Assembly: GCA_905178155.1 (NCBI GenBank)
Contig: CAJINV010000009.1
Span: 620,001-684,000 of the forward strand
Source: Amoebophrya sp. A120
Lineage: Eukaryota; Protista; Dinoflagellata
Direction of reading: 5' to 3'
DNA: 64,000 bases
Both the position numbers and the translations under genes were made by a program. The notes under the pieces were generated by a model, which worked only from the letters and a program-made list of their open reading frames with translations, did not search any database and was not told the origin of the DNA. Below are positions 6,001-59,702 of this stretch, one piece after another; position 1 is the first letter of the stretch, and every line of letters starts with the position of its first letter.

Positions 6001-9000
6001 TCCCCTGGACCTACAACGACACGAGGGACAAGTTCCAGCCCCTTCCCGGCCAGAAGGCGTACGAGACCAAGTTTGACAGCAATTTTGCGGTACCGGGGGC
6101 CGACTTGTTCGATCAGGGCGGGACGAGTGTTAACAAAGCACTACCGCCGATCACAAAGATCCACATGGTTTTGTACATTGAGGAGACGACCGAGTCGCTG
6201 GGTGACAGGGACAAGCTATGGGTGAACGCGAACCAGCAAGACCACTACAAGCACGAGGAGCAGTACCACCGCCGGATCATCGACAAGTACAGCTTCAAGT
6301 CGCAGGAGCATTTGCCCTTCGTCATGTCGACCTTCACGCAGCCGTATTTGACGGAGCTCACCTCTTTCAAGAACGCCGCGTCGCACTTCAACTACAAAAA
6401 GCCGTACAAAAACTTTGCCGGCTTTTACAACCACTACGCGGAGAATCCCTACCAGAAGATGGTGAACACTTTCTCCCTCTGGAACCAAAAAGCGCGCGAG
6501 TTGATGCTGACCGGCGGGAATTTCGCGTACCAGGAGTTCGACAACGTGACGATCAGTGATACGACGTTGTCGCACTTCACGTTTGAAAATTTGAAAGAGG
6601 GCTACTACTACTGGATCAAGTACCGAGTAGGGTCGAACCTCGGCTGGTCGCCCTTCTCCGTCCCGAACCGGTTTTACGCGTCGAAATTGCCCACGAAGCC
6701 GATGCAGCCGTTCGGAATCAACGCGTCGCTGACCAGCCTCGAAATCGGCTGGGCCTTTGACGATGACGGAAGTAAAAACCTGCAGAACGAAGACATTTTC
6801 TACTTCAACGTCTACATCCACGAGAATCCGGTCTTTCCCCACCGGGAGTTCCCCGTGCGCGACCACTACGACGGGGAGAACAAGAACCCGTGGGAGCCGT
6901 TCACCCGGTCGCCGGGGAACCGGTACCTCCACGACTGCGTCGCGAACAACCACAGCCAGGCGCAACTCTACTTCTGGGTGGCGGGCGTGAATGCCGCGGG
7001 TGAGGGCCCGCACTCCGACGTTTTGCGGTGGAGCTGCAGCAACATCCCGGACCAGCCGAAGCCCCCGACGATGTACTACTACCTCGGTGCGAGCGGGTTC
7101 GAGTGGGATTTGTTGCACCCGAACAAGACGGATTTCATCACCATGAACTGGACCCACAGCAACACGTACGGGGCGAAGATCGTCGGCACGAAGCTGTACT
7201 GCTTCGGGAATCAGGGCATGTCGCTGAAGGTGTTCTACACGCGGCAATACGAGACCGTGGAGGCTGGTTTTGGCGACGGGAAGCTGGAGCGGGCGTTTTT
7301 CATCGAGGGTTCGGACGTCACCATGGTGAACATCACGTCCTTCACGCCGACGCAGCAGTACGAGTGCTCTGTCACGACCATCTCCGACGTGGGGGAGTCG
7401 ATAAAGTCCTTCCCGCCGACGCGGTTGGAGATGGCGGGGAAGCCGCTGGCGCCCCCCTACCCTCCCAAGTACGTGTCCTCGCGATTGATCCCGACCGCGC
7501 GCTTGACCATCGAGTACGACCCGAGCTTATCCACAGAAAAAAAACCATCCCCATCCATTTTTTGCATGAGAAGCACAGGATTTTTTACGTGTTTTGCATG
7601 ACAAATTGGATGTGGACGATGGGTGTTTTTTCCTGGATAGAGCTCCATCGACGCGAACGGGGGGAAAATCGAGGCGGTGTACGTGTACGTGTCAATAGAC
7701 GGGGTCGTGTGGGATACGACGTATCTGCTCCAGCCGTACATCTACAAACTCGACCAGGTGTCCGCGCCCTACCAGCACGTGCAGGAGTGCAACGACGCGA
7801 GGCTACAGGGCGACCGTGCGCGGCAGTTCCTGTGGTTCAAGTACGCGGGGTACAGCTCCTCGGGGTTGGGCGGGTTGTCGCCGGCCTTAAAGAAGCGCTG
7901 CTCCAGCTTGCCCGCGTTCCCGCAGCCGATTCTCGCGGTGGACAGAAGGTACAACCCGGAATCCGAGCGCGGCGAAATGCTGATGAGCTGGAACATGCCG
8001 GACTTGTACGGCGCGCAGCACGTCGCCACCAAGATCTGGTGGGACTATGGTGCGGGACTGCCGTCCGGGTACCGGTTTCTGGCGACCATCACGGATACGA
8101 AGCAGACGACCTTCTGGATCCGGAATCTGATCCGCGGGCAGTACTACCGCGTCAGGTACTCGATCCTCTCCGACGTCGGCGAGTCAGCCCGGTCCGACGG
8201 GTTCGGCCGGCTGTTCGCCGGGCCCATGTTGCCGCCAGGGAAGCCGACGAGGAAGAACTCGCTCTTCAACGGCGTGCAGGTGGAGTTCAAGTACACACCC
8301 GACGAATTCTACAACGTGGGCGAGTGTCAGCCGGGAAATTGGGTCGTCTACACGTCGCAGACGGGCATCGACTGGAACTTCGACTCGCCGTTGGCGACGG
8401 TCGGGTGGTCAAACGCCGGTGCGAGCATGAACGTGATTCAAACTCCGGGGACTTACGTCTGGGTGCAGGCAAAGCTGCAGCCCGGGTTTCTGTGCCCGGA
8501 TGGGATCGAGGAGGTGTTCACGCCAGTGGAGAAGTTCTTCATTGGGCGCATCCCGGCGACGGTCGGCGCGATTAGGAAGGTCTCCTCCAAGGAAACGTCG
8601 ATTTTGTTCCAATTGATCCCCGGAAATCTGTTCGATTGCCCGTTGGTCGGTTTCGAATTCAGGTGGCAGAAGGCGTACTTGAAACCGGGCGACTTCGGCC
8701 TGACTATCGAGCACTACGTGCACGTGCCGGCGGCGAACTCGCAGTACAACCTGACGAATCTGGAGTACGACGTGCCTTACCGAGTGCAGTACCGCGTGAT
8801 CTCCGAGTGCGGCACTTCCAACCGCCAGGACGACTTGTCCGCCGCGAGCCTGTTCTACACTGGCGGGGACATCGACCCGCCCGACGACGCATACCCGGAC
8901 CGCGACCGATCCACCGACGCGCAAATCACGCTCGTCTGGCCCAAGTGGGGGTTGTCCGAGGGACACAACATGTACCGGGGGACCATTCACCAGCCCAGCT

Positions 9001-12000
9001 ATTATGTCTACTTGTCCGCGGACCCGAACCACTTTCCGGATCTGCCGACGACCATTATTCCGCTGAAATCCCCGGAAGCTGGGGACTTCTCCACCACGGC
9101 GGACCCAGAGTACTCGACCAACTGTCAGTTGCCGGATCACGGTCAACTGGCTGCGGGGAATTCTGGCGCGGCGAATCTCGACTTCCGGAACGGCGGGGCG
9201 GTGTATCTGAAGATGCAGGTGTACGACGCAGTGACGAGCCGGGTGGGCGTCATGACCAGAGTGCAGAAGTTTGTCTGCACTTTCTTGCCCAACAGACCGA
9301 CGATGAGTGTCCTCGAAACGTCGAACAGCACGATCACGGTGGGGTGGACCGGGGTGGATGTGTTCAACGCAGATTTTGTCGCGTCCCAGCTCTGGATCGA
9401 CGACGGGCTTGGCGGCACGCTGTACAACACGCTGAACATCACGGACCCGAACCAGCACTACGCACAATTCGTGAATTTGACCAACGCCAGACTGTACACG
9501 ATCCGGATGAAGACGCTGTCCACCGCGGGCGCCTCGCTGTACGCATCGACCCAGGGCTACAGCTGCTCGCTTCCGGCCCGGCAGCCCGCGCCCTACCCGG
9601 TGCCCTCCTCGGTCGCGAATTCCTTGTCCGTCGGCTGGACCATCCCCGGCTACGACGGCGACTGCCCGCTGGTCGGATGGCGCGTCATCGAGCGCGCGAA
9701 CGTGTCGACGACAAACGCGCAGGGCGACTCCGTGTACGAAATCCAAGACGTGAACATCTGGCCCGCCAGTCTCCCCATCACCGACCCCTTTGCCGCCGGC
9801 ATGGACGCGCAGTCGCGGCAGTACGGGCCGCTGACCACCGGCTTCACGAATGGCGAAGTTCGCGAGTTCAAGATCCGCGTGTTCAACTTTGGCGGCTTCG
9901 TCGACTCACCGTACATCTTCATCGAGATCGGCCCCACGCCGGAGCAAATGGATCCGCCGGCGATCGACACGCCGACGCTGTCCGGCCCGACAAGCATCTT
10001 CCTGCAGTGGAACATCACGGAAGACACCATGCGTGGCGTGCCGGCGAAGGGCTTCGCGGTGTACCGGGACAACGGGCATCTGAACAGTACAAAGATCGAC
10101 TACGTCAATCTGCAGGCGGTGGACTTGAACGGAACCCTGTCCGACGGAACGGTGCCGGATCCGGCGTGCACGGCGCAGGCCTACGACGGCGTGTGCTACC
10201 CAGAGCTCCCCGATTGGGATAGCAGAAGCTGTGTGCACAAGCCGGTCTACGACGTTGCGCATGCAAGGAATTGCACGATCACCGGACTCGAGCCGAACAC
10301 TTACTACAGGTACTGAAGGTTTTTTCGTATCTATGTTGGCATCCCCGTCCTCTGCTTTATTTTCTTTTTCCATGCATGATTCGCAATTTGTTGCACCAGC
10401 TTCGCTGCTTGCTGTCGACAATCTCTTCAAACATGTGCGATAAGATCTACGCAAGTTTTTCCGCATTCCATACATAATCTCTGCGATGGATGAAACTGCC
10501 AGCAAATGCAATACAGGTTCCGCGTCGCCGCCATCAATCGCCTTGGCCGCGGACCAGTGTCCGACGACGTGATTCTGAAGACCGGCTCGGTAGGTAATGT
10601 GTTCAATACGGTGCCCTTCTTTTCCGGTGCGACTAGTGGCGTACAGACGATGTTTGCCCCGGGTGCGCCGCAAAGCCCCTTGGTCAACGACACGTCTGCC
10701 AGTATCACGTTCTCCTGGAATCAGCCCCCGCAGGAGGACGGCGATTTCATCTTCAATTACAAGGTAAAGATGTTGCTGAATTGAAATTGTTATATGCCGA
10801 TGCTGGCACTGCTTTGGTACAATTTGATTTTGTATCAGTTACTTTGAGTTCCGCATTTATTTTTCCAAGCATACAGGATGACTACAGTCCTGAATACTCA
10901 CTCAGTGAAATAACGATTTGCTTTTGCGAGCTTTTTCATCATCTTGAATTTACGAAACTTCCAAGGCTCTGCTCACTTACATTCCGGACACGACGCGGCC
11001 GCTTCCCGACGACCCGCAGACGACAACCTTCGTCTACGCGGCAAACGGCTCGCTGCAATACCCGCTGCCACTCTCCACGAGGTCGCTGACCGTTCGCGCA
11101 AACGACTCCGCTGAAGCGAGCGCGTTCCTGAAACCTCGGAGAAGTTACCAGTTTCAGCTGATCGCGGTGTCCGAGCTCGGTGATTCAGAGCCGACGGTGG
11201 CGTCCGACCCGGGCTACATTATCAAATGCAAAAATGTCTGGGTCTGCGAGATTTGTCACGCTGATCTGGCATGGCCCTCAAATCTGTATTGCGTGGCCAC
11301 AAACAGCCTCTCTCGCCTGTCATGCAAAAATGCAGTTTCTCATGCGGAATACGCAGCACAGAGCACGAAGCAACTTGTCATGCTTGGCGGCGCATTACAG
11401 TGCATTTGTATATTGACTGACTTGCATCACAAGTTTCCAGACCCAGACATTTTTGCATTTGATATACATCGTGGGGGCACCACTCCCCGCAAGCGGCTTC
11501 CGACAGGACACGTCAAAAGGGTATCAGGGCGCTGTGGTGCACGTGATGTGGAATCCGATTATCGACATGAGCTACGCGGGCGCCGCGCCGTTCGCCACGT
11601 ACACAGAGAGCGCGCCGCCCGGCTGGACGCCGCCGACTTTGCGTAGCTTGCAAATGGAACAAGCTACGTCGAAGGAACTGATCTTGGACGGCGCGGTGAT
11701 GCACTACACTGAGGAGGCGTTCGCGCACTTGCCGCTAGCTGGCGATGACGATCCGCTGGGGAGAAAGCGGCAACTGCTGGAAGAGGACGTGAGAAGGCAG
11801 GTTTCTGCTGACGGCAAGAAGAGCTCGCATCTAGAAGGGACCATGTTGCGTACCAGTGACGAGGATACAGACGACGTCTTGGTTGGAGAAAGAAGTCTAG
11901 ACACACCTACAACCGGCGCCCCATCGACCGCACAGAAAATCCGCCGAGATTTGCTTTCCGATGAGGACGACGAGGGTCAACAAGACCCCGCTCGAATTCC

Positions 12001-26621: not shown

Positions 26622-28098
26622 ATGTCGCAAGAGTCTACATCCACCATCGATGGCGAGATGCCACTGGTGAATGCGAAGACAATATGGATTGCAAAAGCAT
26701 CGTAGCGTACTAGTGTAAGAACTGTAAATTGCATGTACAAGAAATGAACTCAACAGCATTACATAAAATAATAAAATTTGTAATGTGGATTTTCCTTAAC
26801 GCAGCAAGATTTTTTGACTGCGATTTCTACGAGTGCGGTGCTTTTGCAATGCATAGACAAATCAGGTGGTGCAATCCTTCATACTCCAGTACAAAGGGCC
26901 GGGTGGGCAGCACCTTTGCTTGCGCGAAAAGACCTTCTCGACGATCGAGCAGGCGTTTTCGCACAAGGACCTTGCTGGCAAGGTGCTCGAGAAGAAGGAG
27001 GATCCAAAGCGAGCGTACTACTACCGTCTGTTAATGGAAGCAGAGATGAACGAGGATAGCGACGGTACACAGTATTTTATGTACTATGTCGAAGAAAGAA
27101 GCCTACTTCCACTGCTCGTTTCCTTTCCTTGTTTCGACTATTCTTTTTTTTGCCGCACATTTTTGTTTCGTACGGGTAATTTTGCTTCTGGTTCTGGCTC
27201 ATCCTCATCCACCTGTCGTAATCGTTTCAATTGACAACGACCCCTCCCGCTGCAGATGACGACATGTCCGAGTGGTCAGATGAGGACGAGAACCCGGGGG
27301 CTTCGCACGAGCAAGTAGGTAATCCCTCTGGCAGGCGAAGCGATCCTACTACGACTTCGGGCATGAAGCATGCCGGTCCCTCCCCTGAGGTCGCCCCATT
27401 TGTGACCAAAACCGCGACCGGCTTCTGTCTGGGGCCGATCCCGGGAGTGAAGCAGCTCAATCGACAGCAACAGGCGAAACTCCGGGAGGACCGTGCAAAG
27501 GAGGCCCAGGAGTTTTACATGGCACAGAAGAAGAAAAATGACCTACGGGAGGCGAAGAAATGTAGCATTTCCGTTCACACCACATCTGCAGCTTTTTCGT
27601 GCCGTTTATCTATGTGCTTGGATGGAAGTTGCTGTTGTATCATGGTTGCTTTTGTTGCACTTGAACTCGCAATGGAAGTTGTTGCAGTTCGTGAACATTA
27701 CAAAATTATTTGCAGATTTCGCGGAAGCGCGGGGTCTTTTAGTCTCCCGCAGTGAACTCCGTGCGGCATTGGAGAAGAACACGCAATTTCCGGCTGTGGT
27801 GGAGACAAAAGCCAGATTTGGTCCAGCTTGTTTCATCGGTGCGGTTCAGTACAGGAAGAAGCTTTTCTCCTGGGCACCGGCCCCGCCCAGCGTCTCCTCG
27901 TTGGAGCAACCTATCAGCACGGGAAAGACGATGAAAAAGCCCAGCAAGCCGGCAGTCGTGTCCGTCAACAAGATGGTGCAGAAGGAGCGGAAGCGCGGTG
28001 GTTCTCCATATCGTGGAGAGAAGATGAAGGCACTGCGCCAGCGGATTCGAGAGAAGGAAATGCAAAACGTCTTCGGGGCACTATTCGACGACGAGTAA
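26622..28098 (+). CDS. Hypothetical multi-exon protein
   Basis: GT-AG-bounded exons (about 26622-26666, 26866-27064, 27257-27561, 27716-28098) join in frame; ends VFGALFDDE*. Confidence 0.55.
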
Positions 28099-29712: not shown

Positions 29713-32700
29713 ATGACCAGCGTTAATATTCAAGTCGGGACGGGACCGTCCTCTTCCTCTACGTCCAAAAGTAGAGACAATGGTGCCTCAGATCTTGCCG
29801 GGGAGGAGGAGCCATTGCTGGTGCAGTTCCGGACGAGATTGGCCGCCGTGGCAGCCAGCAAGGACGCGGTCGTCGCAACGAAGTTGAAAGACCCACGAAT
29901 GTCGCACGCCGACTACCTGCGCAAGTTCCTCGTCGCGCGGCAGTCCAACCTGGACAAGGCAGCCGACATATCCACAGTAAATTTCCCGTACACGTACAAA
30001 TGCAATCTCTCCATGACAAAACTTGCCTTCAATCCTAGTCTAGCATGACAAGTTCGACACTGCAAGTTAGCGAAATTTGTCATTGCATTTTCTACATGTT
30101 TGTACGGGAAATTTACATTGCATACGACATGCTGGTAGCGCATTTCCACTGGAGGGACAAGATGAACTGTGATGAGGTAAGTTCTAGCTTCCGCAAAGCA
30201 TCTTCTATAGCGTGACTCCTGCATTACATCGATCAACCGAATGACACGTGTCGAGTCCACACTAAGAAGGTAGTTGTACTTAGGCTGTAGGCTCGTGATC
30301 GTTTCTACTTCGACTTGTAAGTCGTTAATCAATTTTTAGCCCCATAATGTCATCAACATCTACTCGTCATTTTTCTTTGTATTTTGCCGAAGTGCTGCAC
30401 TTTTTCCACCTCTTCTTTTGTACACCCTGCGACCAGGTTCTTTCCCAGCACAGAAGTGGAAAATTGTTCTCCCCCTCTGTTATTGGGACCTTGAAGAAGG
30501 CGTACCCCCATGGGTACTGCGGGGTCGACAAACAGGGATCCCCGGTGTACTACGAGCGCATTGGGCAGCTGGATGTGAAGGAGGTTTTGAAAACAGTGTC
30601 CGAGGAACAGTTTCTCCTGTACTTTATCGCGGAGGCAGAGAAAACCGCCTGGATCCGCATGCCCGCAGCGACGGAGTACTTCCACCGGAAACAAGAGGCG
30701 GCTGCGGTAAAGGCGTGTGAAAGTAGAGACGGCTCCACCAAAGTAGAACCGCCACCAGCACCGCCGCCCTCGTCCACCTCTTCCTCAAAGCCGCGGATCA
30801 CGAAGGGCGTGTCGGTACTGGATGTGCAGGGGATCGGGATGGGTTTCTTGGGCAAGACCACCCGGTCCGTGATTGCGCAAATCGGCTCCATGATGTCGGA
30901 CAACTACCCGGAATCGGCGAAGACAATCGTGATCATCAACAGCAGCCGGGTGGCGACCATGCTGTGGCCGGCGGTGCGGGCGTTCATCAATCCCGACACT
31001 GCGAAGAAAATCAAGCTCGTGTCCAAGGCGAAGACTTTCCAAACGCTGGAGGAGCTAATCCAGCCAGAGTGGATTCCCAGCTGGATCCCCGGCGGGAAGT
31101 GCACGCTGTGCGGCGACAACCTGGACCGCGACGTGGGGCCGTGGGTGGAAGGGTGGGAAGAGATGGAAAAACTCGTCTTTCCAAACGACAGTTGCTACTT
31201 TCACAACGCAGCAAATAACCGAGGAGATCTTGTTGACCCGAAAGCAGGCGACAGAACGCTGACCAAGCGCTCGCGTTCTAGGAGCAAGGCACTGCTCATG
31301 AGCGGCAAGAATGCGGCGCTCGGCATTGGTCGGAGGCTCGTCAGACAGCATTCGCAGGAACGCAGCAAGACCCCGGACCTCGACAAGAGAAAAAGTAGCA
31401 AGGAGAGCGACAGCACCGATCTGAAGAAGGGCGGACTCGTGAAACGCCGAAGCTATTCGTCCGGGGAGGTGATCGAGTTCCCGGAAGGACGGAAGAACGT
31501 GCCGCTAGGAACGACGTCTGGGACTGCAGGAACATCAAGTGGGGCGGTTCCGTGCGTCGGAAACATCATCAAGAGCAGCAGAAACAACAACACCAAATCC
31601 GCTGCTGCAGCTACGAGTTCAACATTCGGAAGTAAAATAAACCAGGCGAGCGGCACAACTGGTCATGTCGAGATCGACATTGATACCGCCTCGTTTGCCA
31701 CGCGATCGCGGTCGCTCTCCTACGACGACGCTCCCTCGACCGCTAACGCGGGACAGCGTGATCTGGAAGAAGAACAGATCAATGCAGGTCGCCCTGTTGG
31801 CGTTGGCCTTTGCGAGATGTTGACCTGTAGTAGAACGCCAGGGACTACTTCTGACAACACGGCACTGAACACAGGCGGAGATCAGCTTGTGCACACGATC
31901 AACGTGCTGCCGCTAGGACCATCGACGTCCTCTTCTCGGGGTAGCTCGGGTCCAATTCTTGCGTCATCCGGCGACCAGGACGACAACGACACTCTTGCGG
32001 TCGCTGGTGGTCCAGGTTCGATGAGTAAGGCCAGCAGCGCACAGTCTATCTGCGCAGATGAGCAAGAGCAGACACCAGACCTTCAAAGGGGACTGAGGTA
32101 GAGATATTTATATATCTGTTTCGTCGTTCTTACGTTTGGTTTGGTAATTTTGAAAGAGCGTGCTGGCGCAAGAGCAACCCCAACCATCAGCTCCAGTCTC
32201 CATGCCGCGTTGCCATTGGCGGCCGTGGGGGCCGGGACGTCTTTTAAAAAGCAAGGGTTGCAGATGTTGCATTCTGACAGCACCAGATTGATGGTCAAAC
32301 CAAGTGGTGGACGAATGAAGTAAGGATGTGAAGATGTCCATCCGCTACTGTACTACAACAACAGCATCTACACGACTGAATCGCGGGAGCGCGATACGGA
32401 CGCCCCCGAGACCTCCGTGCGGTATTGGAGCGCAACTTCGCGCAACCGCCTGGCGGAGGAGGAGGAGCTTGGCATCGTGGATCCAGAACACGTGGCAGTC
32501 AATCTGCTCGGCTCCCCGCTGACGGATACGAGCCCCGCGGATTGCCAGTTTCTGCAGAAGACCGAACGGGACAGAACGGCGCTGCTAGGTTCCGGCGCAC
32601 AGGAAAGCTTCGTCCCCGGCGATCCGGCCAACCCCCGACCGTCCAAGTTTACGCGCTTGTGCCGGAAGTTCGCCAATTATTGCTGCCCGCGACGCACGCG

Positions 32701-40283: not shown

Positions 40284-43200
40284 ATGATGGACCAACATCT
40301 CGCGATGAGGACGACGTCGCCGTCTTTGGTCTACGAGGATGGGAATCGGTTCAGTCCCCAATCCTCTCGTTGTCGAGGTGAGAATCTTTCCGGCCACAGA
40401 GAAGACCTTCCGTTGCTTACGAGTCTGGAGCTGGACGCGAGGAGAAATGAGGATATTAAAAGGACGATCTCATTATCATCAACTCCGTCTTCGTCTTCCA
40501 CAAATCCAAGTCCGTTCACGACTGTTCCGCTAGGCAAACGCCTGACTCCGCCGGCTCCGGGCCGTTGCTCTCCTCGTGGCATGGCAGGAAGACAGGTTGC
40601 CAAGTTTCTCTTTTTCAGCGCAACATCGACGCAGCAGATACTCCACGCTGCCTGTAAAGCGGAGGATACCGTTGCATCCGCGGTGTTGAGTGGGGCTTTT
40701 GTTGACACGACGACGAACCGACAAACCACGCAAAATCTTCGCGGAACGGCAACAAATATAGGAACACCGGTGGAATTGGCGCAAGGTCAAAGCTCTACTG
40801 GCGCGGACACGACGAATATCAACGGGGGAGTGGTGAACCTTGACAAAAGTCCTGTAACGTCAGAGCAGCCTGGTCCACTGCAGCAGGGCGATAGTACTCG
40901 TGGTGTTGCAGAAGCTAGTACAGGAAATGTTGACGACGGTCTGTCATCGCATCTGCAGCAAACACAAGCGCCTGGTGAGGAGAACGTGGTTGACGGCACA
41001 TCGAACACTCTAACCACGTCCGGCCCTCCCGGTCCCTCTTCAGGGGTAGCAACAGCAACGGATGACGGCAGCGGCTCCTCTTCTTCAAGTAGCAGCACAG
41101 GAGCCGTCGCTTCGGGCGACGCGGCTGGTGACAAAAAGATAGGACTTCCAGTGTCGCCGTTACTGCACTCGTCCTCTGCAACGTCGTCCGGAGCAAATAA
41201 CGCAAACGGTAATAATGCTGCGAAAGGCGAGCAACTTTCGAACGCGTTTTCGGCTGCCGGATCAGCTGCACTGAATTCCCCGCAGATGCAACAGGACGGC
41301 TTCGTAACGAAATTTATCGCGAACATCGCGCTGCTGTCTTCCGTGGCGCTAATGTTATCCCCGGCACAGTTTTTCTACCAGCTTGTGATAACGCGCGGCG
41401 AAAATATCAAACAGAGTCGAAAGCAGCTGATTCTCCTGCTCCCCTACCTGCTTCTTTGGGTATCAGCGATGCTGTGGGCGACCTGGGCGTACCTAGACAG
41501 CCGCCCGGAGATTTTCCAACTGCAGTGTCTGGGTGCAGTGGTCTACGGCTTCTACGTTGTGATCTTCTGCTGCGGCGCCACCGCCGCACAGAAGGGACAA
41601 ATCCAGTCCGTCGTCGCAGGGACAATGGCACTTGTTTCCTTTACCAGCCTGCAGGGAGCGTGTGTCATGGATCCGAAACATAGTACCACTTCTCGTTATC
41701 TTGATCTACGTAAAACGACTTGCTGTGTGTAGTACGAGTACCTACTTGAAACCATATTTATTTTTATAGAAGAATCAAACTGAGCCTGATTCAGGCTCAG
41801 GTCTTTTTGAAAGCCAGCGAAAGACTACGACGATGTCGGCACCATCTCTGCTTGATGCTAGTGGAGCAAAGATTTTGTGAAAATCAAATTTATCGCAATT
41901 CGACACCCAGGTAAATTTCTCTTCGCCTACTCCGCCCTGAGCTTCCAAATTCTGTTGTACATGGTTCCGTTTATCCAGCTTGCAGACGTCGTTCGCACCG
42001 GCGTGGTGGCGGTTTTTCCTTTGCCGCTTTGCTTTGTCTCCATGATGTCTTCTTTTTTGTGGACCTACTACTCGTGGATCAAATGGAGCCCCGCGTTTTG
42101 GTACTCTTCGTATTTTTCATGGTTTGAAAATTATGAGCAAGTCGCTTTACAACTTACTACAGATCATGAGCAAGTCTAACATAAAGATCGTCCCTACACC
42201 AGCCGACTTGGTGTTGAATGAACGTGGGTGTTTCGCTATCGCGCCCGCATTTGCAGTGTGTGTGTGTGTGTGTGTGTTTTTTTCTGATATTCTACCATTG
42301 CAAACAATTTGCATACACAGGGCCGCGTCCCTCGCGGGTTTTGTCTTCAACGGGATGCAGGTTTCCGTCGTTCTCTACATTCAATGGAAATACGGCAAAT
42401 CCATCGTGGACTCCTGCAAGCTTGAAGCGCCGATAGCCAACGGCCGGCTCCCGTTTCTCATGCAGCACGGGTACCAGATCGATCTGCGAAAGGCTCGGAG
42501 CATGCGTTCGCAGTTTCGGAGTAAGATGGGCACGACCATAAAGGCGGAGGATCACGTTTTCTACAACCAACACCTACACTCCGGGGATCTGCATTATGGA
42601 TGTGTCAGGTTTGAAATCGTCAGAGTTGAAATAGTTTGCAATGCATAAAATGGATGCCAGTTGGAGCCCAGTTTTCAAGTGGCGCATGACAAGTTTTCGC
42701 GGTGCCTAAATCCAGTTTGTAATGCTGTTTGGGTAAGGAAGACGCCTTTTGTCATGCTACTTAAGCAGCTGTATTCCTACCCCTCAACAGGCTTGCAATC
42801 TGCCTCCCTTGCCTACTCTGCAAGACAGGAACTTTGCGGGTTGCATTTTATGCATCACAAATTATTTCAACTTTGACGATTTCAATCCTGACGCTTCCAT
42901 ATGCATCCTCTCGGCAGTCGCGTGGGCGACGGGAGCGTGCTGATCGACCACGGAATGACGGGCCAGGAAATTACGGAAACTGGGTTCGGTATGGAAGCGT
43001 CAGGATTGAAATCGTCAAAGTTGAAATAATTTCTCACGCATAAACTGCAAGGCATGAAGTGCCTCTCTTGCAGGGACCGCAAGTGAGGCCGACTGTCAGC
43101 CTGTTTGGGGTCTGCGGTAGAGCTGCTGAAGTAGCATGACAAAAGACGCCTTCTGTCCCAAAACAGCATGACAAACTGGATTTAGACGCGGCCGGCATTT

Positions 43201-43411
43201 GTCATGCACCGCTTGAAAATTGGGCTTCCAACTGGTATCGATTTTATGCATTACAAGTTATTTCAACTTTGTCGATTTCAAGCCTGACACTCCCATATCC
43301 GGAGGCGGGACCGGCAAAGGGGGAGGCACAGGCGGGAAAAATGGTGGGGCTGCCACTGGAGGCTCGAAACCGGGAGAGAGGACGCGACTGCTACACGCAA
43401 CCCGCTTGTAA
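40284..43411 (+). CDS. SWEET: SWEET (MtN3/saliva) sugar transporter with long N-terminal extension
   Basis: Two MtN3 repeats: IANIALLSSVALMLSPAQFFYQLV..LPYLLLWVSAMLWATW and ILLYMVPFIQLADVVRTG..PLPLCFVSMMSSFLWTYY. GT-AG introns 41683-41910 and 42101-42320 plus two TIR introners; ends GERTRLLHATRL*. Confidence 0.85.
42256..42277. repeat. (GT)11 microsatellite in SWEET intron
   Basis: Direct reading of the sequence. Confidence 0.9.
42595..42901 (+). mobile_element. TIR introner family B, copy 1 (307 bp)
   Basis: 39-bp TIR with 4 mismatches (tatggatgtgtcaggtttgaaatcgtcagagttgaaata); DR tgcat (42590-94 / 42902-06). Removing 312 nt gives HSGDLH-PLGSRVG in frame. Confidence 0.92.
42990..43297 (-). 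mobile_element. TIR introner family B, copy 2 (308 bp), inverted relative to copy 1
   Basis: Starts tatggaagcgtcaggattgaaatcg, the reverse complement of the copy 1 3' end; its internal sequence is also the reverse complement of copy 1. DR ttcgg/tccgg. Removing 313 nt gives TGFG-GGTGKG in frame. Confidence 0.9.
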
Positions 43412-44800
43412 AAAGTTGACATTGATTTTTGAACAAGTGAACACAGGCGCTGAGTTGTATGTCATCGACAATATTTTTTAAGAAGAGCGACGGCGTCCTC
43501 CTGTGATCGTGGCGACGTCAACTGGTTCGAAAGAAGATCGAGATGACCACATTGAAGCGCTGCCAATTGGCCTTGTATGCCTTCTCAATAAGTGAAGACG
43601 TAACTGCTTGTCCCTTAGGTTACTACTGACGAGCCCAAATGTGATGAAATTGAAGGACGATTTCCACCGCCATCTTCATGTAGCTTCAAGCTTGTAAAAA
43701 TTAAGATTGTAAACGACTTCTTCCGATGTTTGAATTCGTACTCCAATCAATCCAATAGTTTTCATGTACAAGAAGAGGGTGGGCGAGCTCTAACCTAATG
43801 TGTAAACAAACGACCAAGACATAATTTAGTATTTCGAAGAAAGAGAAAGACAAAAAACTGCCTTGCTTTTTCTCGAAAGCATTAAACCACGGCCAGCGGA
43901 GTATGATTTTAAGCAGGACCACCGTTGTCGTTTTGTCTTGGCCTGTTGCGTGCTTCTTATTTTGTTGCCGTCGCATCAAACGAACGCGGCGCGCTAGAGA
44001 AAAAGCTGTGTGTCTCCTGATCGTGTTGCTTCTGGACCCGTAGAAAGCAAAATCGGCGACGTGGTATATTCCAGAACTACAAGGAGCTCAGATCGTCCCG
44101 ATTCTTTTGTGAATGAGGGGAATTGGCTCTGGTTTCAAAGTTTCTGGATCGATCGAATTGACTTGTTGTTGAACAACACGACACGATAAATAAATGTAGT
44201 CCAATAGAAATCATCTCCAATGTAGCCTGGGCGACTCCATGCGAAGGATCTAGGACGAGATCGAAAAATCATAATCACCGAGAAACAGAAAGAGCGCTGT
44301 GGCTGTATTAGCATTTCCAGCCGAATTGCAAACTCGAACAAGCCTAATTAATATGCCGAAATTTTTACCACACTTCGTAGCCAAATCAAATTCAAATCTG
44401 TCTCTGTGCCTCAAACGCATGACAAAGGGGAGACAAAGACAAGAATGTGATTTTGACCATCTTTCAAGGAGAACTAACAGGAGCTGCAAAGCGCAAATGG
44501 ACACGCGGCCTCTCAACAGTTTAAACTTAGAAAATTCCATCGCGACGCCGCAATAATTGTTGATCTTGCCGCACAGAGGCGCCAGCTTCAGACAGAGTCA
44601 GAAACAGAATCAGTGCCGTTTTCTAGATATTCAGTTGTGGAGATAGAAGAAAAACACAGAAAAACCTGAAATCGTTGTCCATCCCTATTCGTCATACTTT
44701 ACCAGCTGCAACAAAGTTAAACAAAGACGAAGTAGCAAAATAATAATTTGTCTTCCCCTGCTCATCCAAGAAGTATTTTCCACCAGACAACGCAGCACAA

Positions 44801-48457: not shown

Positions 48458-50803
48458 ATGAACAACTCCACGAACTATTGGCAGCGGGCCAATGACAAGG
48501 GCAAGGAGAAAAAGAAGGAAAATCCTCGGGTGTACCTGGATGTGCAGATCGGGCGCCGAACCGGTGGTCGCGTGGTATTCGAGCTATTCCTCGATGCCAC
48601 GCCGACGATGGCCGAAAATTTCCGGCTTTTGTGCACCGGGGAAAGGGGACGCAGTCCGTTTTCGAAGAAAGATCTGACCTACGCGGCGAGCAAGATAACA
48701 ACCATCGAGCGGGGAATCGGCTTCACTGCCGGTGACTTTGTCCACAACACGGGAAAGACGCTGGGAGAATGTATGAATTTGATGTTCATCTGGCGTTTGA
48801 TGATAAAAAGATATCAGTACAACTGTTACGCAGGACGCGCATACTTGTAGTACTTATTTGCATCAGGTACCAGCGTGCTACTTGTGATATTGGCGATCGT
48901 TTTCATTCACCTGTTCTGTGGTGATGTCGTGACCTTCGAAACTTGTTCTCTAAATGAATCTGAAAAAAACAGGCGCGTTTGGCAACCCAGACGGTTTCCG
49001 CTCGGAGGGGTTCGGGGTGCGGAAGCACGCCAACGCCGGAATCTTGTCCATGTATGTGGACGAGGACAAGCGACGGTGTCACTCGAAATTCCACGTCACC
49101 TTCAAGAAGGCACGGATCCTGGACCGGAAGCACATCGTGTTTGGCTATGTGGTGGACGGTATGGACGTCGTGCGTGCGATCGAGAAAGTCCCAGTGGAAA
49201 CCAACGAAACGCCGCGGGTTCCCGTGGTGATCACAGGCAGTGGGGAGTTGAAGCCGGAGGAAATCCAGGCACTCGCAGAAAAACAAAAGAAGGCGAAGAT
49301 GTATCAGCTGAACATGGCGAATGGTAGTGAAGAAATTAACTTCAATAGCTTTTTTCAAGAACCCGCGGACACAAGCATTTTTGTCGTTTTTCGTAAGAAG
49401 TTCGCTCAGGAGGTGCTCGATCACTCTTATGGCCAATTAACCAAAATTGGAATACGCACTTCTGATTCTGCTCGGATCTACGATTAGTGATTTCCATTTG
49501 ATCTAGTAGAACTAGCCTGTGCACCCGCCTGTCTGAAGAAAATAGTATTTTTCGAATAATCTCCACTACAGTCGGCGCGGACCTTCTGATGAACCCAAAA
49601 CTGAACGCCAACGCGGCCTTTGCCGCGAAGGAGGGCGAGGAGCCGGCGGAGGACGAGATTGCGTTCGACCCGTCCAGCGCCGCCGGGCCGCGGATGCAGT
49701 CCCCTGACCCGGACGGGGACGAGGACTCCGACGAGGAGGAGGATCCCGAGGTGGAGAAAATGCGAAAAAAGCTCGCGGAGGAGTCAGAGTCGGACGACGA
49801 CCAGGACGGCGCCTTTGGCCAACGCAAGATCCAAAAAGTGGTGCCGCAGCTGGGCGCGAAGAGCAGCGACGGGAGCTATTTGAATCAGTCGGGCGAAAAG
49901 TTGCTTGCGGACGAGCTCGCGAAGGGCTTTGAGGAAGAGGGTGAGGACGGTGGTGACGGTGCCCCACAGATCGGAATCAAGATAAAGAAAGTCGCTGGCG
50001 GACGAGGCGCGGCTGCGTCTTCTTCGTCAACCGGTGGATCACGACACGCAGGGGCGAGCAGTTCTTCAGCCGTAGTTCCCGGCGCACAGCCTGTGGAGAA
50101 CCGGAAGGACCGACTAGCGAATCTTCGCCTGAAGATGAACCAGGGGCGACAGCAGAACGTGACGGCGGTGCTCGAGGAGAAGAACAAACACGACAAGGGG
50201 ATAATAACGTACTACAAGTACCAGCAGGAGAACAAGGACAAGGCCGACAAGAAGCAGCTACAGGACGAGTTGGCGGAGTTGGTGGAGGAGGGGAAACTGA
50301 ACCCGGACGCACTGACCGCACGGCGGCGGGCCGCCGCGCCCAAGGGGAAGGAGTACCTGCAGGAGCCGATGGAGATCTCCATGGCGAAGGAGATGAAGAA
50401 GCGGAAGAAGATGACTGCAGATGAGAACATCGCGTACAATGTGTTCAACCAGGACTCGCTCTACCGCGCACAGGAGAAGCGCAACAACGAGATCGTCTTC
50501 GACCACCACTCCTACCAACAGCAGAAGAAGGAGCTGGGCGAGGACGTGTTCTACAACGACCGCGCGCAGTACCTGGTGTCCGGGTTCAAGGAGACGCCGG
50601 CAAATAAGCAAAAGTTCCTGGACGCCATGGCCAAGGCGGAGGAAAAGAAGAACGCCTTCTCCCGCCGCCGCACGCACGTCGACGACGCGGACTTCCAGCA
50701 CATCAACGAACGAAACCGGGTGTACAACCAGAAAATGGACCGCTTCTACGGCGACCACACGCTGGAGATCCGCCAGAACCTGGAACGCGGAACCGCCTTG
50801 TAG
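48458..50803 (+). CDS. SYF2: Cyclophilin-like domain fused to SYF2 pre-mRNA splicing factor domain
   Basis: NPRVYLD..ELFLDATPTMAENFRLLCTGERG..LDRKHIVFGYVVDGMDVV; C-terminal FSRRR..INERNRVYNQKMDRFYG..EIRQNLERGTAL. GT-AG introns 48771-48972 and 49324-49571 join the two domains in frame. Confidence 0.9.
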
Positions 50804-54800: not shown

Positions 54801-57800
54801 AAACTCCAACCCGACGACGTCGACGTCGCAGCAGCACGGGGTCTTGACCAGGAGTAGCAGTAGAGGTGGGATAAAATCCACTAGCACGGTCAGTGCAGGT
54901 GGCGCGGCGACAGTGTCTGTCCCTGATGGCCCCGATGGAGGTGGAGCTGCAACTGGGACCACGACAACCCAACATCAGGCACACGCGTTTGACCAGTTCC
55001 GCAACGAAAGAACGATTTTGTTGACCAAGGGAGCAGACAACTCCATGCTGTCTGTTGGTTCGTTGGAGCAGCCATTCGACGAACGCCAGTGGTTGGACGA
55101 CCACATCTTGGACTTCGCGAAGAAGGGGCTGCGGACGCTGCTGCTCGGCTACCGCTGGCTCTCCACCACCAAGCAAGCCACCTGGTCGGAGAGGTACAGC
55201 CAGTTGCGGGGCAGTATTGACCTGTCCGAAGACGATAAGAAGCAGCAAACCCTGGATATGATCAACGAGATGGAACAAAACCTAAACCTATCCACAGAAA
55301 AAAACCCATCCACATCCAATTTGTCATGCAAAACATACATAAAATTCTGTGTCTGTCATGCAAAAAATGGATGTGGATCGGTTTTTTTCTGTGGATAAAA
55401 CCTCGTCGGCTGCACGGGCGTGGAGGACAAGCTGCAGGACCAAGTGCCGGAAACCATCGCGCAGCTGCAGGCCGCCGGGATCAAGTTCTGGGTGCTGACC
55501 GGAGACAAGGTCGAAACCGCGATCCAGATTGGCCAAGCGTGCAACCTGCTGAACGAAGGGACGTACAATCTCGTTTTGACAACTCCCGACGCGAGCGACG
55601 TCGAGGAACGGCTGAAGGAGTTCCAAATCTGGCTCGACGCTGCCGAAATCTTGCAGTTCGCAATTCAGCTATCACCCTTATTGACGTAGGGATGAAATCG
55701 GTTCTTCCTCTTTCTCTTGCATTTTGAAATGCATCAAAACACTATGGCTATGCATCTGCGTGCGCTGCTGAGGAGACAGCTGTCGTTCCACTTGCCAGAT
55801 GACGCGATGGAACAATAGCTACTTACTTCTAGTGCAAGAATCCTGGCATACGAATCACAAGAGCAGGACAAAGATATGTATGCGAGGATATTAGATCGCA
55901 ATATCAATATGTGATGTGAAGATGTGCGCGGCCTTCAACATCGATATTGTTCTTAAAACACAGTATGACGGTGAAGGTTCCGACTTCATCAGATTTTTGA
56001 CGCGATACTGTTCAGGCGAGGAAGACTTGGTTTGGTCCGACGACGAGATCACCCAATCCGAGGAAAGTGAAAGCCACTCGCAGTATGAAAATACATACGG
56101 CCAGCAGATGCCCTCGTTGGTCCTGAATCAAGCCGACACGAACTCGCCAGCAACATCTTCAGTCGCAATCGGAGGCGCGACGTTCCAGCAACAGCCAGAG
56201 GTACCACTCCTCGGCCCATCAGGAGATGACAGCGGCTATACAGCAGGACGCTCTTTCGCGCCTGGGTCGATAGCGTCCACCTCTTCGACAGCAGTGGCGC
56301 AGCAGCGGGCGCGGCAAACCGGACTGGAAGGCGTGCAGGTCGGCGACGTGGTACTTGCCCCGTATGATCCGAGTGGACCACGGAACACTGCTGCGAGCTC
56401 CGGGCCCGGAGGTACAACCACGGGTGCTGCCACAGGCAGGAGGAAAAGCAGCGCTCACCACCACGAGCATCACCACCATCACCATCACCACGCCACGACA
56501 AAACACATGGTGCGTGCGGAGGACCTGTCGCGGGTGGTGCAGGCGCAAACGGTCGCAGTTGGCACCCAGCCGAGCAGCTCTTCGACCTCGCCACCTCCCG
56601 TAGCACACCAGCATAGCTATCAGCATGAACTTCAAGTAGTGGATCACCCGTTTCCCGCGGTGACGCCGCGCCGGGGCGTTGACCGAGGAACATTTCAGTC
56701 CAGCACCAATTCCAGCGCTGCAGTAGGCAACATAGTGGTCCAAACGCCAACGCGAGCAGGTGGCCCTTCGTTGCCGCACGCCAACTCGCGCGACAAACTC
56801 ATCGCGCGACACATCAGCCGAGCCATTTCGGGTGACAGGCTGATGCAAGACATAGACATGCCGCCCGGGGGGGATCACTACAGTACGACGCGGGCGGATC
56901 CACAAGCGCTTCCCTCGGTCCGCCTTGACTACGACGAGACCACGGCACCGTCGCAGACGCCCGGCCGGCCCACGCGGGCGAGCCACACGCTTCCCACGGA
57001 ATCGGCGTCCAGTCGGTGGTCCCGGACGCTGCGCGCGTTGCGTGGCAGTGCCTCTGGCGTGGATGACACGCCACTGAACCAGATGAAAAAGGAAGAAGGC
57101 CGCTTCTTTCTGTCGAAGCGAAAGAAGCAGATGATAAGGGAGGGTATCCGGAAGCGCTACCAGCAGATCCAGGACCGGCTGGTGACGTTCTCCAGTGCGG
57201 GTCTCGGCGTAACTGGTTCGTCGAACAATCGCGACACCGCCGCATCGTCGTCGTCAAGCCAGCAGCTTCAGCCAAGCAGGATCTCCGCTCTTGGGCAGAC
57301 GCCGCCAACTCCGGCGACAGGTTCGCGAACGACACTGCAACCGCCAGCACAGCTGCACCAGAGTGGAATCAGCGCTTCGCAGCCGATCTCCACGCTTCAC
57401 AGCACGCCACCGCACGGCAGGAGTACAGGCTGCGCGGCAACTTCCAGGTCCGGACAAAAGCCACACCTTCAGCTTCGCGCCGCCGGGGACCAGACGAGTG
57501 TGAATTTCGAAATAGATCCAGGTGACCTACCTCTATCGCAAAACTACGGTGGACTTGAAACACCGACCGCGGCAAGCCGCCGAACGCAGGCTCGCCAGTC
57601 GTTCAAGCTGCCTACCTCTCCGTCACGGCCTGGCGACTTGATGACGGGCCCGGGCGGTGCGCCGCCCTATTCTAGCGCCATGATTCACCGCGTGATCGAC
57701 CCTAGTTCTGGCGAGATAATTGCGACCACCGCCCGTAGCCGCGAGGCTTCTCTCTTTGATACGACGAGCCAAGCGGAACGAATCACGCGCAGAAGGCAGA

Positions 57801-59702
57801 TGGATCGTGGACGCAGCCGCACCTCGATGCAAAAGAGCACCTCGGGAAGTCGTGTCTTTCAACATCACACAAGCACTTTAAGCCGACAAACGCAACAAGA
57901 CGACGGCGCTCCCGGGGGCCAGGTACTTTTACCAGAACAGCAAGAAGAAAACTTGCTCCAGGTCTTCAGAAGCTGCGCCATCACTATCACGGGCGACGTT
58001 CTGGCAGTTATCCTGCAGTCCCGCAAGCTCCGGCGCTTCTTTTTCCGTATTGCGCTGCAGAATTGCAGCGTGATCATTGCTTGCCGCGTGTCACCCATTC
58101 AAAAAGCGGACATTGTCGCGTTGTCCCGCCGTTACCGCCAGTCCGACCACAACGCCATGCTCGCGATCGGCGACGGGGCGAACGACGTGGGCATGATCTT
58201 GCGCGCGCACGTCGGCGTCGGGATCTCGGGGAAGGAGGGCGCCGCCGCCGCGAAGAGCGCAGACTTCGCGATTTCCCAGTTTAAGCACCTGAAGAAACTG
58301 TGTTTCGTTTACGGCCGGGAATCTATGCGGCGTAATGCGCTCTTCGTCTACTACTCGCTTTACAAAAACGTCGCGTTTTCCATGCCGTCCGTGTTTTTCT
58401 CGATGGTGAGCCGTTTCTCCGCGCTGGACCTGTATGACCCATGGGTGAAATATCCAGGAAAAAACACCCATCCACATCCAATTTGTCATGCAAAACATAC
58501 ATAAAGTTCTGTGTTTGTCATGCAAAAAATGGATGTCGGTGGGTTTTTTTCTGTGGATATGAAACAGATTTTCAACACAGTGTTCACCTTTCTGCCCATC
58601 GTCCTGTACACCATTTTTGACCGCGAACTGCCCTACTACTACCTCCTCAACGGGCCCCCGCTGTACCGGCCCCTCCGATTCGGTGTCCCCTCCACCGGCA
58701 CCGTGGCTTTCTGGTACTGGTTCTGGCAGGGCTGCTGGTGCGCGTTCATCTGTGCGGTCTTGCCCATGTGGCTCTTCGACGAGGCGCCGGAGCTCGCGGG
58801 AACGCCAGCGGGCTACCACGTCGGAACGTTGGTTTTCACGTCCGTGATCTGCTCCGTCACTGCGATCCTCCCCATCCACCACAACATCTACTTCTACTTC
58901 ACGATCCCCGGCCTCGCGATGGGGCTGCTCACCTTCCTGTGGGTCTGGATTCTCGTTTCCGAGACGCAGATGATCGGGTACCGAAGTACCATGTACCGGA
59001 CCTACTACCTGCTGACCTGGACCGTCGGATCGCAGTTTTTCCTGATTCTCATCGTCACCACGCTCTTCGCGGTTCTGCCACACTACATCTACTTGCTGCG
59101 GGGCGTGTTCTTCCCGGACGGAGTGCGAATCGTGAAGGAGAGGATAAAACTCCGGGTACACGACGTGCTCTTGCTCCCGGACGCCACGAACGCCAACACT
59201 GGGCCGGTGATCGTGCCGCACAAGCGCCAGATCCGCTTCGAAGATTTGTACGAGCCGGAGGTGAAAAGCAGGCAGCTAGGGGCGGGTGCGCAACAGCCTT
59301 TGCTGACGGCGGAGACGAAGAATGCAGTATAGATGTGTGCGTGAAGTAGTTGTTCCTGAAATTAGAGAACCAATTTCAAAGATTAGTTTGTGGAGGCAAA
59401 ATAGAACATCGACAGACGAACGCGCATCAATGAACGGGGACCCGACCAGTTTCTATCTCATTTCAAAACAGGACTCCGTCGCGGCCCCAGGTGGCGATAA
59501 TCAGCCGCCGGGTGGTGCTAGTGGTGCTATCAATGGCGTACTCACGAGTTTCCTCCCGAATAAGTGGCTCCGAAGTCAAAGTCAAGCAGGAGCAGAGGGA
59601 CAGCAAAGCGAACCTGTAGTAGGCGCTGGTCGAGATGAGGCGGTCGCCGAATTTGACAGCGCTACAAGCTCCGGAGAGAGTCCTTTTGTAGCTGTCAGCT
59701 GA
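51900..59702 (+). CDS. P4-type ATPase (phospholipid flippase)
   Basis: [72 protein letters not shown]. Introns ~54126-54348, 55289-55402, ~55657-55963, 58451-58564, ~59327-59471. Confidence 0.95.
55289..55397 (+). mobile_element. TIR introner family A (109 bp)
   Basis: tatccacagaaaaaaacc...ggtttttttctgtggata; DR aaacc (55284-88 / 55398-402). Removing 114 nt restores [14 protein letters not shown]. Confidence 0.95.
58451..58559 (+). mobile_element. TIR introner family A (109 bp)
   Basis: tatccaggaaaaaacaccc...gggtttttttctgtggata; DR tgaaa (58446-50 / 58560-64). Removing 114 nt restores [19 protein letters not shown]. Confidence 0.95.

What the first reader, a model, noticed from the sequence alone, without database searches (positions are those of the whole stretch)
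42590..43302. Two inverted copies of a 307-bp introner flank an 83-88 nt mini-exon, forming a ~700-bp foldback with a possible in-frame skip
Copy 1 (42595-42901, DR tgcat) and copy 2 (42990-43297, DR ttcgg/tccgg) are diverged reverse complements with different target repeats, so they are two insertions (possibly local hopping). The exon between them stays open (PLGSRVGDGSVLIDHGMTGQEITETGF). In pre-mRNA each copy's own 39-bp TIR competes with ~300 bp of inter-copy pairing. Excision at the outermost ends (42595-43297) would give cat|tcc gga ggc, also in frame and 26 codons shorter. This is a natural test of structure-guided splicing, and the pair has the form of a composite element that could carry an exon.
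Basis: partly seen in the sequence, partly recalled or inferred. Interest (0 to 1): 0.8.

Follow-up and report, generated by a model that had tools for sequence, protein, structure and literature searches.

The report
Opposed introner pair keeps its mini-exon
Two copies of a common, already described jumping-DNA intron sit in opposite directions around a tiny exon of a predicted sugar-transporter gene in the plankton parasite Amoebophrya A120; transcripts cut each copy out separately and keep the exon, likely because each copy folds on itself before the two can pair.

Summary
The anatomy is real: two 307/308-nt TAT…ATA elements, 81% alike, in opposite orientation, with different 5-bp target duplications, 88 nt apart. 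They are Amoebophrya A120 introner elements (PMC7789003); this scan has noted that intron class on other pieces of this genome. All 4 RNA-type contig runs that hold the gene (one sample label) lose each element plus 5 nt separately and keep the mini-exon. No skip joint is listed, although the foldback is predicted to be 129 kcal/mol more stable. The mRNA keeps the left duplication of copy 2, so the proposed cat|tcc junction needs an acceptor that is not used; a skip at matching cut positions removes 83 nt and shifts the frame. Local hopping fails: the copies fall in separate subfamilies with 99% and 95% relatives elsewhere. A composite element fails: the outer ends share no duplication. Close same-family neighbours are common (4 of 14 loci). 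This is an ordinary member of a known class. What remains is a small natural test: global RNA folding does not choose splice partners here. Rare skipping is untested.

The parts
42595..42901 (+). Introner copy 1 (307 nt, TAT…ATA, 58-nt terminal inverted repeat); removed from mRNA with one 5-nt duplication (312 nt)
   Evidence: joint 42589>42902 in X3-X6
42590..42594 (+). Left target duplication of copy 1 (TGCAT)
42902..42906 (+). Right target duplication of copy 1 (TGCAT)
42902..42989 (+). 88-nt spacer holding the 83-nt coding mini-exon (exact ends ambiguous within the duplications); included in mRNA
   Evidence: table 8; annotated protein P0001 equals the model with this exon
42985..42989 (+). 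Left target duplication of copy 2 (TTCGG); at least its first two bases stay in the mRNA
   Evidence: joint 42986>43300 with 3 ambiguous letters
42990..43297 (-). Introner copy 2 (308 nt), opposite orientation, other subfamily; removed with one duplication (313 nt)
43298..43302 (+). Right target duplication of copy 2 (TCCGG, one mismatch to the left copy); at least its first two bases are intronic
42321..42594 (+). SWEET-family gene, exon upstream of copy 1
43303..43411 (+). Last coding exon, ending in a C-terminal motif shared with homolog P0002; RNA contigs run on without a joint to 43857-43960
40284..43411 (+). Host gene, 684 aa (P0001): exons 40284-41682, 41911-42100, 42321-42594, 42907-42989, 43303-43411; two GT-AG introns and two introners; Pfam PF03083 MtN3_slv

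Best explanation
Two independent insertions from different subfamilies of one high-copy Amoebophrya A120 introner family landed 83 coding bases apart in a SWEET-family gene, and each is removed from the mRNA on its own with one 5-base duplication while the mini-exon is kept, likely because each copy's own ends pair and are committed to splicing as the RNA is made, before the more stable foldback between the copies can form. Shown: the anatomy, independent origin, separate removal and inclusion (about 0.93). Predicted: the foldback is the equilibrium structure, and copy 1's own 53-pair stem is the best structure until the transcript is about 140-160 nt past copy 1. Inferred (about 0.55): kinetic, local pairing sets the partners; a relaxed spliceosome then cuts at a fixed offset inside the duplications, so a skip would remove 83 nt and shift the frame. 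The close opposed arrangement is what chance gives in a family of likely thousands of copies.
For: RNA: X3, X4, X5 and X6 each have one unbroken contig (depth 105, 39.6, 58.3, 23.7) with joints 42589>42902 and 42986>43300 and the mini-exon between; no joint from 42589-42594 to 43298-43303 is listed. X4-X6 have zero depth at 43970-44473 where X1 has 43.9, so they behave as RNA, and X1 lacks both joints. Folding: -445.1 kcal/mol with 265 inter-copy pairs against -316.4 without; end duplexes alone are own -77.1 and -57.4 against cross -76.0 and -72.2. In growing prefixes copy 1's own stem is intact at 42900-43000 and 43040, partly lost at 43020 and gone from 43060. Origin: tree of 18 copies and identities. 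Frequency: 4 of 14 independent loci have a second full copy 314-2045 nt away, 3 of them opposed; rough Poisson estimates give 0.6-34 opposed pairs within 100 nt per 115 Mb for densities of 1 per 100 kb to 1 per 13 kb (genome size from PMC7789003 section 5).
Against: Inclusion does not show that any hairpin is used; the first two rivals predict the same mRNA. Prefix folding is an equilibrium calculation and holds no kinetics. The lead of 140-160 nt is only seconds of transcription (recalled rates), so trapping of the stem, not early excision, must be assumed. In Euglena, structured non-canonical introns are removed later than spliceosomal ones (PMC6221363, abstract), which would give a foldback time to form if the same holds here. 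The four RNA runs are one sample label and one study, are contigs that drop rare forms, and may be the data behind the annotation P0001. The three raw-read runs gave no test. The cut position of copy 1 cannot be read (identical duplications): 7 allowed unequal-register combinations would be in frame. The neighbour density comes from another assembly and from loci chosen for holding a copy.
Confidence: 0.6

Rival explanations
1. Same anatomy and inclusion, but the hairpin is not what guides splicing: proteins or snRNPs read each element end as a linear motif and define the 83-nt exon, and helicases undo whatever pairs. The inverted repeats are then only a leftover of transposition.
For: Both orientations of one family are cut cleanly in one gene, as near-symmetric end motifs would allow. 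Only about 30% of A120 non-canonical introns carry IR plus DR (PMC7789003 section 11). Inclusion holds against a 129 kcal/mol predicted bias.
Against: No shared splice dinucleotide is evident among the window's 8 elements, and U1 snRNA was not detected in A120 (PMC7789003, passage), so what would read the ends is unknown. Structure brings the ends together in euglenid non-canonical introns (PMC6221363, abstract).
Confidence: 0.25
2. Matching direct repeats license the cut: the machinery joins only ends whose flanking duplications agree, so the outer pair (TGCAT, TCCGG) is rejected even if the foldback forms.
For: The outer flanks agree at 2 of 5 positions, each element's own at 5 of 5 and 4 of 5. 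16 of 19 family copies have perfect duplications.
Against: Copy 2 is cut exactly despite a mismatch. Perfect duplications also follow from recent insertion. If the foldback formed, each copy's own ends would be held apart.
Confidence: 0.08
3. One reading: the foldback drives excision at the outermost ends and gives an in-frame isoform 26 codons shorter at an appreciable level, as the inverted Alu pair does for TBXT exon 6.
For: The foldback is the predicted minimum-energy structure and closes the two outer ends. The mini-exon peptide is not conserved in homolog P0002, so its loss might be tolerated. Contigs drop rare variants. Precedent: PMC10901737 (passages).
Against: No such joint in 4 of 4 RNA-type runs, and the contigs are unbroken across the locus. 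The junction needs a donor after base 5 of one duplication and an acceptor before base 1 of the other, while the used acceptor lies after base 2 or later. The shifted-frame stop of a same-register skip (43417-43419) lies in the last exon, so junction-dependent decay would not be expected to hide it (general knowledge; untested in this organism).
Confidence: 0.04
4. The pair is a composite transposon, or the product of a local hop, that moves or could move the exon.
For: The outer ends are both intact family ends that pair well (-72.2 kcal/mol), so a transposase could in principle use them.
Against: There is no duplication around the outer ends, the mini-exon is at single-copy depth, and the copies lie in separate clades. 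Any two neighbours with like ends have the same form, whatever their orientation.
Confidence: 0.02
5. The palindrome is an assembly artefact.
For: No listed X1 contig spans the whole structure; four window letters inside copy 2 are absent from X1 contigs.
Against: All four borders are in exact single-copy-depth DNA contigs; RNA shows two separate gaps with their own duplications; each copy matches a different subfamily in another assembly at 99% and 95%.
Confidence: 0.01

Closest known systems
Introner elements / non-canonical introns of Amoebophrya sp. A120 (Farhat et al. 2021, PMC7789003; Gozashti et al. 2025, PMC12130899)
   Same: TAT-initial inverted ends, 3-5-nt direct repeats over the exon/intron borders, repeated families, removal without GT-AG; the host protein is in that strain's annotation (P0001).
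   Different: The inverted ends here run 55-58 nt against the 8-20 nt motifs described. The paper's main text has no occurrence of 'skipping' or 'isoform' and, in the sections read, does not treat neighbouring same-family copies.
[quoted passage not shown]
   Same: Two diverged copies of one mobile family in opposite orientation flank an exon and are predicted to trap it in a loop.
   Different: There the repeats lie inside long GT-AG introns, more than 500 bp from the exon, and the in-frame skip is observed. Here the repeats are the introns themselves, each has its own competing hairpin, no skip is seen, and a same-register skip would frameshift.
Euglenid nonconventional introns (PMC6221363; PMC12501133)
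   Same: Non-GT-AG introns whose ends pair, with a cut at a set distance from the paired motif and unknown machinery.
   Different: Other lineage, other motif (CAG/CTG-type), no long transposon-type inverted ends or 5-bp duplication in the abstracts read; no homology tested.
Non-autonomous TIR transposons (MITEs) and composite transposons
   Same: Short non-coding element with inverted ends, a target duplication and high copy number.
   Different: Spliced from mRNA; no transposase identified here; the pair lacks the shared outer duplication of a composite element.

Membership tests
Amoebophrya A120 introner element (PMC7789003) | Inverted repeat between the 5' and 3' ends of the same intron | tested here: met
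   58 nt at 88% and 55 nt at 85%; own hairpins -138.6 and -125.1 kcal/mol
Amoebophrya A120 introner element (PMC7789003) | 3-5-nt direct repeat overlapping the exon/intron borders | tested here: met
   5-nt repeats; element plus 5 nt removed
Amoebophrya A120 introner element (PMC7789003) | Removed from transcripts at non-GT-AG ends | tested here: met
   Joints in X3-X6 listed as TG..TA and CG..TC, with no GT-AG reading offered; one register gives copy 2 a GT start but a CG end
Amoebophrya A120 introner element (PMC7789003) | Repeated in the genome as a family | tested here: met
   2230 X1 contigs laid on the stretch, summed depth 10,778-136,746 over the elements against 44 on the flanks (no copy number); 17 further copies examined from another assembly
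Amoebophrya A120 introner element (PMC7789003) | End motif TAT, seven variable bases, then three or more A | tested here: inconclusive
   TAT is present at all four ends, but the first AAA comes at positions 20-22, not 11-13; the paper's logo (Fig. S25) was not seen
Non-autonomous TIR transposon (MITE) | A cognate transposase that recognises the ends | not tested
   No whole genome held; the fetched loci were not searched for a transposase
Composite transposon | One target duplication around the outermost ends | tested here: not met
   TGCAT against TCCGG
Composite transposon | The captured segment occurs at further sites | tested here: not met
   Mini-exon contig at depth 40.8 against 44 for the flanks in X1; table 8 was cut, so other pieces may be unseen
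Inverted-repeat-driven exon skipping (TBXT type) | Inverted pair flanking an exon with a predicted stem-loop | tested here: met
   265 inter-copy pairs, mini-exon in the loop
Inverted-repeat-driven exon skipping (TBXT type) | Skipped isoform present as a substantial transcript | tested here: not met
   No skip joint in 4 of 4 RNA-type runs
Inverted-repeat-driven exon skipping (TBXT type) | Rare skipped or circular product | not testable with these tools
   Only contigs hold this gene; the raw-read runs X9-X11 do not cover its exons
SWEET / MtN3 transporter (host gene) | Pfam PF03083 above the curated cut-off | tested here: met
   26.5 bits against 23.7 on exon 2; none on the exon 1 and exon 3 pieces scanned alone; PF03083 precomputed for P0001 and P0002
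SWEET / MtN3 transporter (host gene) | Two MtN3 repeats, seven helices, sugar transport | not tested
   No fold or assay was run

The most novel reading that the evidence does not exclude
Amoebophrya's non-GT-AG splicing picks partners under kinetic, co-transcriptional control: an introner's own hairpin is locked in within about 150 nt of synthesis and beats a foldback that is 129 kcal/mol more stable. The genome's opposed same-family neighbours (likely several to dozens at mini-exon distance, many more within 2 kb) then form a ready-made series that tests the published hairpin model from existing reads, without any genetics in this organism.
Probability: 0.45. Interest if true: 0.55.

Novelty: new member of a known kind. 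Interest (0 to 1): 0.3.

Why it matters
How Amoebophrya removes tens of thousands of non-GT-AG introns without a detected U1 snRNA is open (PMC7789003 section 16), and the leading picture is a hairpin between the element ends. This locus shows that the equilibrium fold cannot be what pairs the ends: the strongest predicted structure would join the wrong ends, yet the mRNA is exact. One locus cannot tell kinetic hairpin commitment from hairpin-independent recognition, but the class of such neighbours can. It also shows that one family is spliced in both orientations and that dense invasion leaves an 83-nt exon intact. No new isoform, no exon-carrying element and no new system is supported.

Tried and rejected
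Whole genome: none held, so no genome-wide count of opposed pairs. Raw-read RNA runs X9-X11: no reads on the exons (X10 and X11 none laid; X9 25 partial reads on the element end), so no test. The look-up of sequencing runs listed no holder on record as RNA; X3-X6 were guesses; X3-X6 carry the spliced joints and X4-X6 passed the silent-stretch control. 8 of the 11 listed runs were laid; X2, X7 and X8 were not. Looking for the same gene, with or without the elements, in the other assembly failed because those records are not held. Gene conversion between the inner arms (43 identical bases) was considered and dropped: that end is the family consensus, with 42-43 of 43 matches in 10 of 13 anchor copies, though these were chosen by an exact 25-base match to that end, and the 4 unselected copies match 33-40 of 43. 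Back-splicing of the mini-exon: no backward joint in the RNA contigs, but an 83-nt circle would not be expected in such libraries, so no test. X1 has 5 joint rows (6 contigs) in which one family end is followed by unknown letters and another family end, which hints at more close pairs; the matched sides are 22-29 nt and the tool warns of repeats, so this is weak. Rows left out: L013 (same, apparently mirrored, contig as L012) from the table, tree and counts; L015 (cut by the contig end) from the table and tree; L014_2537 (489 nt) from the tree. Not in print, as far as searched: paper searches and the term count gave no report of skipping or inclusion between neighbouring Amoebophrya introners; one search found no earlier scan note. 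The library lacks most subscription papers, and the supplement of PMC7789003 (Figs S19-S25) was not read and may bear on the cut position.

Full report
Observation. Copy 1 matches the reverse complement of copy 2 at 253 of 311 columns, and blastn finds no third full copy in the window. Their own inverted ends run 58 and 55 nt. A scan for TAT…ATA elements with a 5-base repeat gave 9 rows; 8 are convincing elements and one (48855-49544) is weak.

Organism and gene. The exon before copy 1 matches, at 100%, a 684-aa protein labelled Amoebophrya sp. A120, and a 271-aa homolog at 79% (2 hits among 47 candidates). A five-exon model that drops each element plus 5 nt translates to exactly that protein. 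Exon 2 scores above the Pfam cut-off for MtN3_slv. The mini-exon peptide is not conserved in the homolog, but the last residues are (ERTRLLHATRL against EHTRLLEATRL). That tail resembles an acidic dileucine sorting signal (recalled, untested). A120 introners are described as TAT-initial, with inverted and direct repeats (PMC7789003 section 11).

Transcripts. Of 11 runs listed, 8 were laid. The three raw-read RNA runs do not cover the exons and give no test. The four RNA-type contig runs X3-X6 (one sample label, one study) each hold one unbroken contig with joints 42589>42902 (312 nt, 5 ambiguous letters) and 42986>43300 (313 nt, 3 ambiguous letters), with the mini-exon between them. They also join 42321 to exon 2 across a GT-AG intron (loose-end tables), and X4-X6 are empty at 43970-44473 where the DNA-type run X1 has depth 43.9, so they behave as spliced RNA. 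X1 has neither joint, so no empty allele is seen. Neither joint table lists a skip or a back-splice of the mini-exon. Contigs drop rare forms, so this shows that inclusion dominates, not that skipping never happens.

The in-frame skip. The mismatch in copy 2's duplication is informative: the mRNA reads TT, so the cut lies after base 2 or later of both repeats. The exon removed by a skip is 83 + j - i bases for cut offsets i and j. All six equal-offset cases frameshift; seven unequal cases allowed by the RNA would be in frame. With a fixed cut a skip replaces the conserved tail, and its stop (43417-43419) lies in the last exon.

Folding. For 42570-43322 the best structure is -445.1 kcal/mol with 265 inter-copy pairs; with such pairs penalised it is -316.4 with both own hairpins. 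Even the end duplexes alone slightly favour cross-pairing (-148.2 against -134.5). In growing prefixes copy 1's own 53-pair stem is in the best structure from 42900 to 43000 and at 43040, partly displaced at 43020 and lost from 43060. So equilibrium folding predicts the wrong partners. Because the ends are near-symmetric, cross-pairing of ends is open to any two neighbours of a family; opposite orientation only adds the pairing of the interiors.

Origin and frequency. An exact 25-base end pattern found 15 loci in contigs of one other public assembly, holding full-length copies. In a tree of 18 copies, copy 1 and copy 2 fall in two clades, each with support 100/99; copy 1 is 99.0% like L002 and copy 2 is 95.1% like L001, against 81.1% to each other. 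Local hopping is rejected. 4 of 14 independent loci carry a second full copy 314-2045 nt away, three opposed and one in the same direction, 1 extra copy per 13 kb of flank. Densities from 1 per 100 kb to 1 per 13 kb give roughly 0.6 to 34 opposed pairs within 100 nt in a 115-Mb genome, about 6 at the window's own density (crude, ignoring clustering and selection). Summed element depth in X1 is hundreds to thousands of times the flank depth, which the tool says is no copy number. The outer flanks are no duplication and the mini-exon is single-copy, so the pair has not moved as a unit.

Mechanism. Shown: two insertions, separate exact removal, inclusion, both orientations spliced. Inferred: each element's ends pair as the RNA emerges and are committed before the partner copy is available, and a relaxed spliceosome cuts at a fixed offset. 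Nearly all spliceosomal proteins and U2, U4, U5 and U6, but no U1, were found in A120 (PMC7789003, passages). Hairpin-independent reading of the ends and a check of the direct repeats predict the same mRNA and are not excluded.

Comparison. It is a member of the A120 introner class by every testable feature but the exact place of the A run. It has the form of TBXT-type inverted-repeat skipping (PMC10901737) but fails its defining outcome. It is no composite transposon.

Papers seen: PMC7789003 abstract, passages and sections 5, 11, 12, 16, no supplement; PMC12130899 passages; PMC10901737 passages; PMC12501133 abstract with opening text and section list; PMC6221363 abstract; all others search listings only.

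Verdict. A real, ordinary instance of a published intron class. The striking predictions (in-frame skip, hop, composite element) are not borne out. A modest constraint on an open splicing question remains. Interest 0.3.

Noticed in passing
window 7528-7639, 55289-55397, 58451-58559: A second, 109-112-nt TAT…ATA family with three copies; two (92% alike, same direction, 3.1 kb apart) lie in the P-type ATPase gene. Their ends could also cross-pair.
   Followed up: partly
window 11220-11464, 26683-26855, 29969-30124: Three more TAT…ATA elements with perfect 5-base repeats; relatives of the first two occur in loci L005, L006, L011 and L015.
   Followed up: partly
window, the 8 elements: An 8-base internal motif (TGTCATGC or its reverse complement, with variants) is in 7 of 8 elements across families; earlier scan notes also report a shared internal motif.
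   Followed up: partly
L001 282-591, L010 85-392, window 42990-43297: Mismatched target duplications are in 3 of 6 copies of copy 2's clade and 0 of 13 others (Fisher p 0.02, noticed after the fact); L010 has 4 of 5 mismatched and may be rearranged.
   Followed up: partly
L014 2537-3025: A family copy lengthened to 489 nt by about 170-180 extra bases near one end, possibly a nested insertion, 314 nt from another copy.
   Followed up: no
L012, L013: Two ends of one 10.8-kb contig that look like mirror images (3393 of 3828 positions equal as reverse complements); likely an assembly chimera.
   Followed up: partly
window 2000-2172: Tandem array of a self-complementary 16-base unit with many nested palindromes, at the start of a long fibronectin-III reading frame.
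   Followed up: no
window 43078, 43189, 43195, 43196: Letters inside copy 2 that no laid X1 contig carries: private variants dropped from the contigs, or consensus errors in the window.
   Followed up: no
window 42843-42883, run X9: 25 RNA reads 90-95% like the family end in a run that lacks this gene's exons: a related element in another strain or organism.
   Followed up: no
window 40284-41300: The SWEET-family protein has a low-complexity N-terminal extension of about 340 residues before its first hydrophobic stretch; homolog P0002 begins near residue 367 and may be partial.
   Followed up: no
19 family copies: The longer open frame across the joined site lies on the strand of copy 2's orientation in 13 of 19 copies; a crude hint of orientation bias, with copies chosen by one end.
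   Followed up: no
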